64,000 bases of DNA from Myxococcales bacterium (GTDB taxonomy: Bacteria > Myxococcota_A > Polyangia > Polyangiales > Ga0077539): positions 10,984 to 74,983 of the forward strand of contig JAEUKH010000018.1 in NCBI GenBank assembly GCA_016792845.1. The letters run 5' to 3'. Of the stretch, positions 9,007 to 13,457 are shown in pieces; position 1 is the stretch's first letter; every line of letters begins with the position of its first letter. Under the pieces are notes generated by a model. The model was given only the letters and a program-made list of their open reading frames with translations, was not told the origin of the DNA and did not search any database. Both the position numbers and the translations under genes were made by a program.

Positions 9007-10662
9007 ATGCGATTTTCGACACCAGTCGCCCGAATTCGATCCCAGGCGCTGCAAGAGCAACCCGTCGACGGGGGCACCGTAGACGAGTGGTTCGTGCTCT
9101 CGGTGAAGGGCCGCGAGGCGGTCTCATCGCTCTACGAGCTCGAGCTCAGGCTCCTCACCTCGCACCTCTTCGCGGCGCCCTACGACAGCGACCGCGTCGA
9201 CGAGCTCTTCTCATCGAACTACGTCGTCGACATGCACCAGGAGGTGAGCGAGGGCGCCGACACCCCCGGCGGCCACGACCCCGTCATCGCGGCGATGGTG
9301 CACGGGTATCACGGCGTCTTGCGCGAGCTCGAGATGGAGAACGTCGCCCGCGCCACCCCCGACCTCGACGGCGCCACGCCCATCGTCTACCGCGCCGTGC
9401 TCGTGCCGCGGGTGTGGTTCCTCACACAGAGCGTTCGCACGCGCTTGTTTCAGGCCATGAGCGTCCCCGAGGTGCTGCGCCACATCCTCGACGAGCTCGG
9501 CCTCGAGCTCGACGCTGATTTCGAGTTTCGCCTCCTCGGCAAGCACCTCCAACGCGAGTACCTGCTCCAGTACGATGAGAGCGATTGGGCCTTCCTCTCA
9601 AGGCTCTGCGAGCACGAGGGCATCTTCTTCTGCTTTGAACAGACCCAAGACCGAGAGAAGCTGGTCTTCGGCGACCACAACGAGGGCTTTCAAGAATTCG
9701 TCACCCTCGCGGCGCTCGCGCAGAGCGACGACGACACGCGCTTCCGCCACGTCCGCTTCGACCCCCGCGGCGGCGTGCTCGATTCGGTGCCCGCGATCAA
9801 GCGGCTCACCCGACGCTGGCGCCAGGTGCCGCGCAGCGTCGCCGTGGTCGATTATGACTACAAGACCCCGAGCGCCGACGTACACGCCGCGACCGAGGTC
9901 TACCCCGCCGGGCTCGGGCAGCGCGTTCATTACCTCGAAGCCAAAGAGTACTCGGCCGCGGGCAAGGCCGACGACGTCGCCGCCCAGGTCGCGCGCCTCG
10001 CGCCCATTCGGGCCGCGAGCTACCTCGCAGAGCGCGAGCGCCTCTTCGCAGAGAGCGCGGTGCTCGGGCTCTTCGCGGGCATGACCTTCTCGCTCGAAAA
10101 CCACTACGACGCCGACCTCGTATGGCTCGACGAGAAGGCCGACAAGCGCCGAAGGTACATCGTCATCGCGTCTGAGTTTTCGCTCGTTCAAGAGGGCATC
10201 GGCGACACCGGCAACCTGGGCTTCGGCGCCAGCCTCACCCTCCAAGGCCACGAGCTCGCCTACCGCCCGCCCCTCGCGACGCCGCGCCCCGTGGTGGCCG
10301 GCGGGCTCTCGGCCAAGGTCGCCGACCGAAACAACGACCCCGCCGCAGACCTCGACGCCCAGGGGCAGTACGCGCTCCTCCTCGACATCCCCACGATCGG
10401 CGGAGGCCCCGCCAACGGCCCAACGATCAAGCGCTTTCGGATGAGCCAGACCTTCACCGGCCCGGCCTACGGCATGCACCACCCGCTCCATGTTGGCGCC
10501 GAGGTGCTGCTCGTTCACCTCCGCGGCGACCCCGACCGGCCCGTCATCGCCGGGAGCCTCCCAAACTTCTCGAATGTGCCGCCGGTCACGGCGCGCAACG
10601 CGACCCACGGCGGCGTCCGGAGCCGCAACGGGGTGGTCGATTACATCAATGACGACGCTTGA
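9007..10662 (+). CDS. vgrG: type VI secretion spike protein VgrG (gp27/gp5-like core, truncated before the C-terminal beta-helix)
   Basis: RBS aagagg 9-14 nt upstream of ATG 9007. The gp27-like N-terminus EWFVLSVKGREAVSSLYELEL..., the OB-fold and the VgrG motif LRGDPDRPVIAGSLPNFSNVPP near the C-terminus are all recognisable. The protein ends 30 aa after this motif at TGA 10660-10662. Confidence 0.75.
   Translation: MRFSTPVARIRSQALQEQPVDGGTVDEWFVLSVKGREAVSSLYELELRLLTSHLFAAPYDSDRVDELFSSNYVVDMHQEVSEGADTPGGHDPVIAAMVHGYHGVLRELEMENVARATPDLDGATPIVYRAVLVPRVWFLTQSVRTRLFQAMSVPEVLRHILDELGLELDADFEFRLLGKHLQREYLLQYDESDWAFLSRLCEHEGIFFCFEQTQDREKLVFGDHNEGFQEFVTLAALAQSDDDTRFRHVRFDPRGGVLDSVPAIKRLTRRWRQVPRSVAVVDYDYKTPSADVHAATEVYPAGLGQRVHYLEAKEYSAAGKADDVAAQVARLAPIRAASYLAERERLFAESAVLGLFAGMTFSLENHYDADLVWLDEKADKRRRYIVIASEFSLVQEGIGDTGNLGFGASLTLQGHELAYRPPLATPRPVVAGGLSAKVADRNNDPAADLDAQGQYALLLDIPTIGGGPANGPTIKRFRMSQTFTGPAYGMHHPLHVGAEVLLVHLRGDPDRPVIAGSLPNFSNVPPVTARNATHGGVRSRNGVVDYINDDA

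Positions 10663-13457: not shown

What the first reader, a model, noticed from the sequence alone, without database searches (positions are those of the whole stretch)
9007..13457. VgrG truncated right after the GDPDRP motif, followed in the -1 frame by a 925-aa ORF that ends in VgrG-like beta-helix turns: split, frameshifted or 'evolved' VgrG
The VgrG ORF stops 30 codons after the conserved LRGDPDRPVIAGS motif and lacks the C-terminal beta-helical needle. The next ORF has its ATG 21 nt later. Its six-frame open frame overlaps the vgrG stop by 4 nt in the -1 frame. Its last 150 aa (IHFDSESGAFNVHAEKGVALRTHG...VELKKSGTKIDGTKINIG) look like terminal VgrG/gp5 beta-strand repeats. Between them sit an intrinsically disordered Pro/Ser-rich N-terminus, a long Ala/Lys-rich helical region and an EF-hand-like loop. 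This could be a vgrG with an internal cargo insertion disrupted by a frameshift (pseudogene or sequencing error), a programmed -1 frameshift, or a genuinely two-piece spike. Any of these would be unusual.
Basis: partly seen in the sequence, partly recalled or inferred. Interest (0 to 1): 0.7.

Follow-up and report, generated by a model that had tools for sequence, protein, structure and literature searches.

The report
Two-gene type VI secretion spike
The "truncated" VgrG is not broken: in a small group of myxobacteria the type VI secretion spike is naturally encoded as two genes, a hub protein that stops where the needle should begin, and a 924-residue partner of a rare, undescribed family that probably carries the needle and its tip.

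Summary
A 551-aa VgrG (9007-10662) lacks the whole beta-prism. A 924-aa ORF starts 20 nt later in another frame (10683-13457).

It is not a frameshift, sequencing error or programmed slip.
- Seven related loci in Myxococcota assemblies have the same two genes, one with only a remnant of the partner.
- Every VgrG stops at the same conserved ...NDDA (one ...NDHA).
- The frame offset differs between loci.
- An independent contig, 99.6% identical with no gaps, has the identical junction.

The locus is a class III Tvp / "synteny type C" vgrG island: DUF2169-pentapeptide TvpAB, pentapeptide TvpB, DUF4150 cap, VgrG. Known members have unusually long VgrG prisms. Here the prism appears to sit on the partner.
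- The partner's C-domain hits Pfam DUF2345 in 9 of 9 members, all below threshold.
- It ends in the spike-tip motif (...KIDGTKINIG) also found in VgrG-5, TvpC and canonical VgrGs.

The partner family has 12 matches, fragments included, among 1.84 billion cluster representatives. It has no Pfam model.

Best reading (about 0.6): a gene-split spike with an internal helical insert. Physical association is inferred, not shown. Stand-alone DUF2345 genes and "split vgrG" loci are already described, so this is a new variant of a known kind.

The parts
4403..6607 (+). TvpAB/TagAB-like accessory protein (DUF2169 domain plus pentapeptide repeats), 734 aa
   Evidence: Pfam DUF2169 9.2e-75 and Pentapeptide 7.3e-41. 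Homologs sit at the same position in L001, L005, L007, L009 and L016.
6617..8566 (+). TvpB/TagB-like pentapeptide-repeat protein, 649 aa
   Evidence: Pfam Pentapeptide 7.8e-83. Homologs in all related loci.
8571..8984 (+). DUF4150 / Tox-PAAR-like ('PIPY'-type) spike cap, 137 aa. It contains PPIPTPFP.
   Evidence: Pfam PF13665 1.5e-28. It is 72-80% identical in L001, L003, L005 and L007, the most conserved gene of the module.
9007..10662 (+). Short VgrG/TssI, 551 aa: gp27-like hub plus gp5 OB-fold. It ends at ...VVDYINDDA, which corresponds to the canonical 'NEIRFEDKKG' neck. No beta-prism.
10519..10557 (+). LRGDPDRPVIAGS motif (aa 505-517), the end of the OB-fold
   Evidence: Conserved in all VgrGs compared.
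10663..10682 (+). 20-nt spacer (GAGAACGGCGAGCTAGACCC) with purine-rich, SD-like GAGA/GGCGAG. No slippery site.
   Evidence: No promoter-like site anywhere in 4000-15500, and no terminator-like site on the + strand (the two found are on the - strand).
10683..13457 (+). 924-aa partner protein of an undescribed family: the putative detached needle/tip with an internal insert
10953..11348 (+). Conserved N-domain (aa 91-222). 'Neck' motif NDAKPAGPKQFRVFSVPSPETRVNLGEW, then FGYPGYS, VFQ, WTQ and TSG motifs. Predicted beta, fold unknown.
   Evidence: Alignments A1 and A5. No Pfam or PDB hit. Weak alignment to the segment that follows the split point in long class III-like VgrGs.
11349..12647 (+). Insert: amphipathic helices (aa 223-347), variable Ala/Gly-rich linker (aa 348-512), second helical block (aa 513-655)
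12486..12521 (+). Canonical EF-hand loop DANQDGKVSFGE (aa 602-613). Kept in P0002 and P0003, absent in the L003/L005 clade.
12648..13454 (+). C-domain (aa 656-924): all-beta, DUF2345-like putative trimeric prism
   Evidence: 9 of 9 family C-domains hit PF10106 below threshold, best 5.7e-6. Top PDB sequence hit is VgrG 9rce_F residues 507-589, E=0.028. AlphaFold2 gives a pattern of short strands.
13425..13454 (+). Spike-tip motif KIDGTKINIG at the C-terminus, the putative binding face for the DUF4150 cap
   Evidence: Alignment A7: G(-7), I(-4) and terminal G are shared with TvpC/DUF3540, Burkholderia VgrG-5, a Caballeronia VgrG and E. coli/Rahnella VgrGs. Present in 9 of 12 family sequences and in no short VgrG.
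13454..15037 (+). RCC1-repeat lipoprotein (lipobox ATLGC). Its start overlaps the partner's stop by 4 nt. Candidate immunity or accessory protein (inference only).
   Evidence: Pfam WD40_RLD 1.4e-54 and RCC1. Homologs lie next to the module in L003 and L007.

Best explanation
This is an intact operon for a two-gene type VI secretion spike inside a class III Tvp (TagAB/TagB/DUF4150) vgrG island.

The 551-aa VgrG supplies the gp27-like hub and the gp5 OB-fold. It ends at the neck where the beta-prism normally starts.

The 924-aa protein is the detached and expanded C-terminal half of a class III, VgrG-5/VgrG1-type spike. Its parts are read as follows.
- The N-domain begins with a copy of the neck segment and presumably docks on the VgrG trimer.
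- A helical, Ala/Gly-rich insert, with an EF-hand loop in one subclade, is carried as internal cargo. This is topologically like the lysozyme domain of phage T4 gp5.
- The C-domain forms a DUF2345-like trimeric prism. Its C-terminal tip (...KIDGTKINIG) is capped by the DUF4150 protein with the help of TvpAB and TvpB.

Shown here: the gene structure is conserved and not a frameshift; the VgrG lacks a prism; the C-domain resembles DUF2345 and carries the tip motif; the Tvp context is present.

Inferred: trimerisation, docking on VgrG, capping by the DUF4150 protein, secretion, and any toxic or membrane activity.
For: Conserved two-gene layout.
- The short VgrG plus long downstream ORF occurs in the window/L019, L001, L003, L005, L007 and L022. 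L021 keeps a remnant.
- Spacers are 10-20 nt.

Conserved VgrG end.
- All VgrGs of the clade stop at ...NDDA (one ...NDHA; more distant short VgrGs at ...FELEDDA and ...FEFNDGGF). This aligns with canonical NEIRFEDKKG.
- The window VgrG has only 34 residues after the motif. Canonical 637-643-aa VgrGs have about 200 residues after theirs.

C-domain resembles a VgrG prism.
- DUF2345 is hit by 9 of 9 family members, best 5.7e-6, window 3e-4.
- The best PDB sequence match is the prism region of a VgrG.
- The top two Foldseek hits are a phage baseplate chain and Francisella VgrG, neither significant.

Tip motif.
- It is shared with TvpC, VgrG-5 and canonical VgrGs.
- It is absent from the short VgrGs.

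More distant cases of the same pattern.
- L008: VgrG of 487 aa, then a 475-aa ORF with DUF2345 at 9.1e-6, a family C-domain HMM score of 25 bits, and the ending ...SGASIKLG.
- L015: VgrG of 505 aa, then a 325-aa ORF with DUF2345 at 0.0033.

Context.
- TvpAB, TvpB and the DUF4150 cap are present.
- In Serratia, TvpC (DUF3540) is an OB-fold plus prism mimic of VgrG. Paar1 binds the prism tip, and class III VgrGs have unusually long prisms (PMC13373197).

Neck and architecture.
- The neck motif of the partner aligns in register with the segment after the split point in long VgrGs (hhalign P=0.03).
- Long class III VgrGs from plasmids, shown for Burkholderia sp. THE68, have the same order: beta, then an Ala/Gly-rich helical segment, then a beta tip.
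Against: Every homology signal for the prism is below a curated or conventional threshold.
- DUF2345: 21.1 bits against a 30.7 cut-off.
- PDB sequence hit: E=0.028.
- hhalign against TvpC: E=0.0036, probability 9%.
- hhalign for the neck: P=0.03.
- BLASTP against the VgrG-5 C-terminal half: E=0.29.
- Family HMM against long VgrGs: scores overlap shuffled controls.

No fused 'Rosetta stone' protein was found.

The N-domain has no detectable relative.

No TvpC and no T6SS core genes lie in the 64-kb window.

Nothing here tests physical association or secretion.
Confidence: 0.6

Rival explanations
1. Cargo effector with a spike-tip mimic. The 924-aa protein is an effector that borrows a TvpC/VgrG-like C-terminal tip to enter the Tvp-PAAR complex. 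It rides on the spike but is not the coaxial continuation of VgrG. The short VgrG functions as a blunt hub.
For: The tip motif is also carried by TvpC, which is a non-secreted mimic. The large helical, low-complexity middle and the EF-hand loop look like cargo. The downstream lipoprotein could be an immunity protein. Short VgrGs in L009 and L016 are not followed directly by a clear family member.
Against: A DUF4150/PAAR cap needs a prism tip, and the short VgrG has none. The partner is strictly adjacent to every VgrG of the ...NDDA clade. TvpC coexists with the partner in L001, L007 and L022, so the partner is not simply a TvpC substitute.
Confidence: 0.2
2. Recent frameshift, pseudogene or assembly error in a once-fused 'evolved' vgrG.
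For: The ORFs are adjacent, in different frames, with a 20-nt gap.
Against: The stop position is conserved at 47-60% protein identity. An independent contig has 34 SNPs, 0 gaps and the same junction. GC3 is 0.81-0.88 in frame in every segment. The partner has its own ATG and about 90 aa of leader that has no counterpart in VgrGs.
Confidence: 0.02
3. Programmed -1 ribosomal frameshift fusing VgrG to the partner.
For: In the window the downstream frame is -1 and overlaps the vgrG stop.
Against: There is no X XXY YYZ heptamer in 10648-10662, and the open frames overlap by only 10 nt. The frame offset is +1 in L001, L003, L005 and L022, and -1 in the window and L007.
Confidence: 0.01
4. The partner is functionally unrelated to the spike, for example a surface or adhesin-like beta-rich protein that happens to be co-transcribed.
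For: No model passes a curated threshold. The N-domain is an orphan.
Against: Synteny with short VgrG is strict across diverged loci. DUF2345 is the top Pfam family in 9 of 9 members. The tip motif is shared with spike proteins.
Confidence: 0.07

Closest known systems
Class III Tvp accessory system (TvpAB, TvpB, TvpC/DUF3540, DUF4150 Paar1 with VgrG1 of Serratia marcescens; TagAB-5/TagB-5/TagC-5/TagD-5 with VgrG-5 of Burkholderia). Monlezun et al. 2026, PMC13373197. 'Synteny type C' of Sachar et al. 2025, PMC11883445.
   Same: The gene set is the same: a DUF2169-pentapeptide fusion, a second pentapeptide protein, a stand-alone DUF4150 cap and VgrG. TvpC is present in the orthologous loci L001, L007 and L022. 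The spike-tip motif is the same as in VgrG-5 and TvpC.
   Different: Known class III VgrGs are long, with prisms up to 186 A. Here the VgrG has no prism, and the prism-like domain and tip are on a separate 924-aa protein. The gene order also differs, with the accessory genes upstream of vgrG. No TvpC lies in the window.
Separately encoded DUF2345 'co-effector' genes downstream of vgrG (E. coli PAR AKO63_2954; P. aeruginosa PS42 Q094_05020). Commun Biol 2023, PMC10673891. Also 'split vgrG' loci in Acinetobacter (PMC6838775).
   Same: Part of the VgrG needle is encoded by the gene immediately after vgrG. Stand-alone DUF2345 was shown to bind VgrG and a toxin.
   Different: In those cases DUF2345 stands alone or sits at the N-terminus of a toxin. 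Here the DUF2345-like domain is at the C-terminus, after about 650 residues of novel sequence, and it ends in a free tip. Similarity to PF10106 is below threshold. Whether their VgrGs keep the gp5 prism was not checked here. Here none is left.
Phage T4 gp27-gp5 cell-puncturing device (gp5: OB-fold, lysozyme insert, beta-helix, cleaved into gp5* and gp5C). Established knowledge, not tested here.
   Same: The OB-fold and the needle end up on separate polypeptides. A non-needle domain sits between them in sequence.
   Different: T4 achieves this by proteolysis of one gene product. Here there are two genes. The insert is helical and low-complexity, not a lysozyme.
Francisella T6SS central spike PdpA-VgrG (PDB 6u9e)
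   Same: The spike is built from two proteins, one of them a small prism-only VgrG. 6u9e_B was the second-best Foldseek hit to the C-domain model (E=0.03).
   Different: There is no sequence similarity, the T6SS subtype differs, and the hit is not significant and comes from a low-confidence model.

Membership tests
VgrG/TssI (for ORF 9007-10662) | gp27-like hub domain (Phage_GPD) and family-level HMM above cut-off | tested here: met
   Phage_GPD 6.6e-51. TIGR03361 218.5 bits (cut-off 186.35). TIGR01646 195 bits (cut-off 121.8).
VgrG/TssI (for ORF 9007-10662) | gp5-like OB-fold ending in the GDPDxP motif | tested here: met
   Motif at aa 505-517. Phage_base_V residues 478-518, E=4e-4, 21.1 bits, just below the 23.8 cut-off.
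VgrG/TssI (for ORF 9007-10662) | C-terminal trimeric beta-prism with a tip for PAAR | tested here: not met
   No Gp5_trimer_C, Gp5_C or DUF2345 hit at E<=1. Only 34 residues follow the motif. The protein ends at the neck...NDDA. No tip motif.
DUF2345 (PF10106), VgrG prism extension (for ORF 10683-13457) | Score at or above the Pfam gathering threshold (30.7 bits) | tested here: not met
   The window C-domain scores 21.1 bits, E=3e-4. The full-length protein gives no hit at E<=1. However, 9 of 9 family C-domains hit DUF2345 as the top family, best 5.7e-6.
DUF2345 (PF10106), VgrG prism extension (for ORF 10683-13457) | Trimeric beta-helical fold | tested here: inconclusive
Class III Tvp system | TvpAB = DUF2169 fused to pentapeptide repeats | tested here: met
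   Window 4403-6607: DUF2169 9.2e-75 plus Pentapeptide 7.3e-41.
Class III Tvp system | Separate pentapeptide-repeat TvpB and a stand-alone DUF4150 cap | tested here: met
   Window 6617-8566: Pentapeptide 7.8e-83. Window 8571-8984: PF13665 1.5e-28.
Class III Tvp system | TvpC (DUF3540) in the cluster | tested here: not met
   tblastn of two DUF3540 proteins against the whole window gives nothing better than E=0.57. TvpC is present in L001, L007, L015, L016 and L022. It could be elsewhere in the genome.
Class III Tvp system | Cognate VgrG with a long beta-prism | tested here: not met
   The VgrG has no prism. The prism-like domain is on the next gene.
Stand-alone or toxin-N-terminal DUF2345 co-effector (PMC10673891) | Gene directly downstream of vgrG | tested here: met
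   20-nt spacer.
Stand-alone or toxin-N-terminal DUF2345 co-effector (PMC10673891) | DUF2345 alone or at the N-terminus of a toxin | tested here: not met
   The DUF2345-like region is at aa ~664-724 of 924, in the C-terminal domain.
Stand-alone or toxin-N-terminal DUF2345 co-effector (PMC10673891) | Binds VgrG and bridges to a toxin | not testable with these tools
   Needs pull-downs or multimer modelling.
Programmed -1 ribosomal frameshift site | Slippery heptamer in the overlap and a conserved frame relation | tested here: not met
   Sequence 10648-10662 is AATGACGACGCTTGA. Frame offsets differ among six loci.
EF-hand | Canonical 12-residue loop DxNxDGxVxxxE flanked by helices, Pfam above cut-off | tested here: inconclusive
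   The loop DANQDGKVSFGE fits the consensus. EF-hand_1 scores 19 bits against a 25.4 cut-off. It is conserved in P0002 and P0003 but not in the L003/L005 clade.

The most novel reading that the evidence does not exclude
A class III VgrG has undergone natural gene fission exactly at the OB-fold/prism neck. The membrane-piercing needle is then a separately translated 924-aa trimer of an undescribed, Myxococcota-restricted family (12 matches among 1.84 billion cluster representatives). It carries its cargo, a helical Ala/Gly-rich insert with a possible Ca2+-sensing EF-hand, inside the needle between two prism segments. This is a T4-gp5-like topology not so far reported for T6SS. It would give a genetic handle for swapping needles or effectors on one hub.
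Probability: 0.4. Interest if true: 0.65.

Novelty: new variant of a known kind. Interest (0 to 1): 0.5.

Why it matters
It matters in four ways.

1. Annotation. These short VgrGs are called normal TssI by HMMs, and their total length looks ordinary, which hides the missing needle. The partner is annotated as hypothetical.

2. Class III Tvp model. The published model ties the TvpAB/TvpB/TvpC chaperones to very long VgrG prisms. A lineage in which that prism is a separate protein would be a natural experiment on which part of the spike the chaperones recognise.

3. Toxic activity. In Serratia VgrG1 and Burkholderia VgrG-5 the toxic or fusogenic activity could not be separated from the spike. 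A detachable C-terminal half might allow that dissection.

4. Engineering. A hub plus exchangeable needle would be a simple architecture for T6SS cargo engineering.

All of this depends on showing that the two proteins really assemble.

Tried and rejected
Structure and fold.
- AlphaFold2 on the C-domain (pLDDT 56) and on the N-domain plus helices (pLDDT 46) was too weak for fold assignment.
- Foldseek against PDB gave no hit at E<=0.001.

Profile comparisons.
- hhalign of the family C-domain against 2 and then 6 DUF3540 proteins gave E=0.025 and 0.0036 with low probability.
- hhalign of the N-domain against the post-OB region of 15 VgrGs gave E=0.16. Against 8 class III-like VgrGs it gave E=0.03.
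- The family C-domain HMM against 12, and then 8, long VgrGs or TvpCs scored at most 9.3 bits, overlapping shuffled controls.
- BLASTP of the partner against the C-terminal halves of VgrG-5 and the Caballeronia VgrG gave E~0.3. The best HSP with VgrG-5 is end-to-end at the C-termini.

Searches.
- N-domain profile against Pfam and PDB sequences: nothing.
- N-domain profile against the 5.8-billion protein set: one 113-aa fragment, no fusion proteins.
- DUF3540 in the window: absent.
- T6SS core genes in the window: none found among the 10 large ORFs scanned.
- Collecting more class III VgrG C-terminal halves from plasmids: only 3 records.

Other ideas.
- A transmembrane or glycine-zipper segment in the insert was rejected as a family feature. 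Only the L003/P0004 clade exceeds 1.7 on a 19-residue Kyte-Doolittle window; the window protein peaks at 1.25.
- Frameshift, sequencing error and programmed frameshifting were rejected as described under the rival explanations.
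Full report
**1. What is in the window**

Six genes lie head to tail on the + strand.
- 4403-6607: DUF2169 fused to pentapeptide repeats.
- 6617-8566: pentapeptide repeats.
- 8571-8984: Tox-PAAR-like/DUF4150, 1.5e-28.
- 9007-10662: VgrG, 551 aa.
- 10683-13457: a 924-aa ORF with no Pfam or NCBIfam hit above any cut-off.
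- 13454-15037: an RCC1-repeat lipoprotein whose start overlaps the previous stop.

Across 4000-15500 the scan found no promoter-like site and no terminator-like site on the + strand. The window is 70% G+C. GC3 in the called frame is 0.88 for vgrG and 0.81-0.88 for each of six segments of the 924-aa ORF.

- 34 residues, not 30, follow LRGDPDRPVIAGS.
- The ATG is at 10683.
- Stop to stop, the downstream open frame starts at 10653.

**2. The VgrG truly lacks the needle**

It passes the TssI/VgrG family cut-offs (TIGR03361 218.5 bits, TIGR01646 195 bits). It has the gp27-like domain and the OB-fold motif. At E<=1 it has no Gp5_trimer_C, Gp5_C or DUF2345 hit.

Compared with other VgrGs, its last residues ...GGVRSRNGVVDYINDDA correspond to the canonical ...SGIKSRS...NEIRFEDKKG. 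That is the first strand of the prism. Canonical 637-643-aa VgrGs carry about 200 residues after their GDPDxP motif.

**3. Not a frameshift, an error or recoding**

A genome scan and contig look-ups found the same arrangement in Polyangiales and other Myxococcota assemblies.

| Locus | VgrG (aa) | Downstream ORF |
|---|---|---|
| L001/L004 | 554 | 1106 aa |
| L003 | 546 | 831 aa |
| L005 | 546 | 796 aa |
| L007 | 543 | at least 753 aa |
| L022 | 555 | 906 aa |
| L021 | 533 | remnant only, keeping the partner's first conserved motif |

- The VgrGs are 47-60% identical to the window's, yet all end ...NDDA (one ...NDHA) at the same alignment column.
- Spacers are 10-20 nt.
- The frame offset of the second gene is -1, +1, +1, +1, -1, +1 (arithmetic on the coordinates).
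- There is no slippery heptamer in the 10-nt overlap of open frames.
- L019, a contig from another sequencing run, is 99.63% identical over 9272 nt. It has 34 substitutions, no gap and the same junction.

**4. The partner is a rare, undescribed family**

A word-indexed search of 5.8 billion proteins found one identical sequence and one homolog. An exhaustive phmmer of the C-terminal 285 residues against 1.84 billion cluster representatives found 12 proteins, several of them fragments.

The alignments show two conserved blocks separated by a variable middle.
- N-domain, aa ~91-222: motifs D.KP.GP.Q[FY]..[LV]..VP.P.T..NLGEW, FGYPG.S, VFQ, TFQ, WTQ and TSG.
- Middle: amphipathic helices, an Ala/Gly-rich linker of very different length between members, and a second helical block.
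- C-domain, aa ~656-924.

In the window, P0002 and P0003, the second helical block contains a textbook EF-hand loop (DANQDGKVSFGE). This loop is missing in the L003/L005 clade.

**5. The C-domain looks like a VgrG prism with a VgrG tip**

- Scanned in isolation, all 9 C-domains hit Pfam DUF2345 as the top family. The best is 5.7e-6; the window scores 3e-4 and 21.1 bits. All are below the 30.7-bit gathering score. DUF2345 is the beta-helical extension of the VgrG needle (PMC10673891).
- A profile of the C-domain against all PDB sequences ranks a VgrG first. The match falls in its prism (9rce_F residues 507-589, E=0.028).
- The AlphaFold2 model is all short strands but unreliable.
- The two best Foldseek hits are a phage baseplate chain and Francisella VgrG, at non-significant E-values.

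The clearest single observation is the extreme C-terminus. ...SGTKIDGTKINIG aligns end to end with:
- TvpC/DUF3540 proteins (...RIDGEKIDLG, ...KVKGEKIHLG);
- Burkholderia VgrG-5 (...VKIDGQLIQLG);
- a Caballeronia class III VgrG (...CTGKLIQLG);
- ordinary VgrGs from E. coli and Rahnella plasmids (...QIKGGIINIG).

G(-7) and the terminal G are invariant in 14 of 14 sequences, and I(-4) in over 90%. The motif is present in 9 of 12 family sequences and in none of the short VgrGs.

**6. Context from the literature**

The accessory genes define the class III Tvp system of Monlezun, Earl and Coulthurst (PMC13373197). This is synteny type C of Sachar et al. (PMC11883445).

In Serratia, TvpAB, TvpB, TvpC and the DUF4150 Paar1 form a pre-complex. 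TvpC is an OB-fold plus prism mimic of VgrG. Paar1 sits on the end of the prism, and VgrG1 later replaces TvpC. Class III VgrGs have unusually long prisms.

The window therefore has the chaperones and cap for a long prism, but a VgrG with none. The only protein in the operon with a prism-like domain and a tip is the 924-aa partner.

TvpC is absent from the window. It is present next to the partner in L001, L007 and L022, so the partner does not simply replace TvpC.

**7. Hints that the partner is the detached C-terminal half of a class III VgrG**

- In the long VgrGs closest to this clade, and in class III VgrGs from Burkholderiaceae plasmids, the neck reads, for example, ...HMTDSKGKEAVWLHSPFHNSTIGIG.
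- The short VgrG stops at ...INDDA, level with TDSK.
- The partner's N-domain starts NDAKPAGPKQFRVFSVPSPETRVNLGEW, which can be laid on the next segment in register.
- hhalign finds this same register, starting at the split point, but only at P=0.03.
- The Burkholderia sp. THE68 VgrG, read in full here, runs beta segment, then an Ala/Gly-rich helical segment, then a beta tip. This is the order seen in the partner.

I treat this as suggestive, not established.

**8. The pattern extends beyond the family**

- L008: a 487-aa VgrG, 35% identical and ending ...FELEDDA, is followed by a 475-aa ORF. That ORF hits DUF2345 at 9.1e-6, scores 25 bits on the family C-domain HMM and ends ...SGASIKLG.
- L015: a 505-aa VgrG is followed by a 325-aa ORF with a weak DUF2345 hit (0.0033).
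- L009: a 490-aa VgrG sits next to a TagH-like FHA gene and a Tvp set. This shows that short VgrGs occur in a T6SS-gene context.

**9. What is already known and what is new**

Separately encoded needle parts are not new. DUF2345 occurs as a stand-alone gene after vgrG or at the N-terminus of toxins, and it binds both VgrG and the toxin (PMC10673891). 'Split vgrG' loci were noted in Acinetobacter (PMC6838775).

Four things differ here.
- The cut lies at the very base of the prism.
- The partner is large and its family undescribed.
- The DUF2345-like domain is at the C-terminus with a free tip, so the non-prism insert lies inside the needle in sequence. This resembles the lysozyme of T4 gp5 (established knowledge).
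- The context is class III Tvp.

**10. Verdict**

- The frameshift and recoding readings are rejected with high confidence.
- The two-piece spike is the best explanation (about 0.6).
- Its main rival is a cargo effector that mimics a spike tip (about 0.2).

Assembly, secretion and any toxic activity are untested. Every homology signal for the prism is sub-threshold. The strength lies in their agreement and in the strict synteny. I rate it a new variant of a known kind, of moderate interest.

Noticed in passing
window 13454-15037 (+); L003 6504-7184; L007 246-1280: An RCC1-repeat lipoprotein (lipobox ATLGC) is translationally coupled to the partner gene. Homologs lie next to the module in two other loci. 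It is a possible immunity or accessory protein.
   Followed up: partly
P0012 (92 aa): A short protein whose first ~37 residues resemble the middle of the DUF4150 cap. It joins at 'KAV[FY]' to the last 55 residues of the partner family, tip included. It could be a recombinant or an assembly chimera.
   Followed up: no
window 16398-16886 and 16921-17526 (+), then 17331-19175 (+): Two adjacent ORFs have Gly/Asp/Thr-rich middles and closely similar C-terminal ~40 residues (...FRMVSTLGQSSIHQ...LRGGLVGA...). They are followed by a collagen-like GXY, Cys-rich secreted protein.
   Followed up: no
L021 4732-5595 (+): After a short VgrG (533 aa, ends ...NDHA) an open frame keeps only the family's neck motif (family N-domain HMM 19.7 bits). 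This appears to be a decayed or truncated partner gene.
   Followed up: partly
L009 10001-21473 (Sandaracinaceae MAG): Gene order is TagH-like FHA gene, short VgrG (490 aa, ...FELEDDA), DUF3467-like 133 aa, ORFs of 693, 442 and 449 aa, TvpAB, TvpB, TvpC. The 442- and 449-aa ORFs begin with QR[IL]..[DH]VP...T....[IL]G, which resembles the partner's neck motif.
   Followed up: partly
window 33413-35719 (-): A ClpB/ClpV-like AAA+ ATPase (AAA_2 plus ClpB_D2-small) with no detected Clp_N domain. No T6SS core gene was found among the 10 large ORFs scanned.
   Followed up: no
window 29849-31630 (-): An AAA_21/AAA_15 ATPase (ABC/OLD-like), a domain type often seen in defence systems. Its neighbours were not examined.
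   Followed up: no
L001 13341-14024; L017 11322-11990: The L001 DUF3540 (TvpC) protein gives a weak DUF2345 hit (6.5e-4). All six TvpCs read end in ...G[ED][KR][IV].[LV]G. This fits the published view that TvpC mimics the VgrG prism tip.
   Followed up: partly
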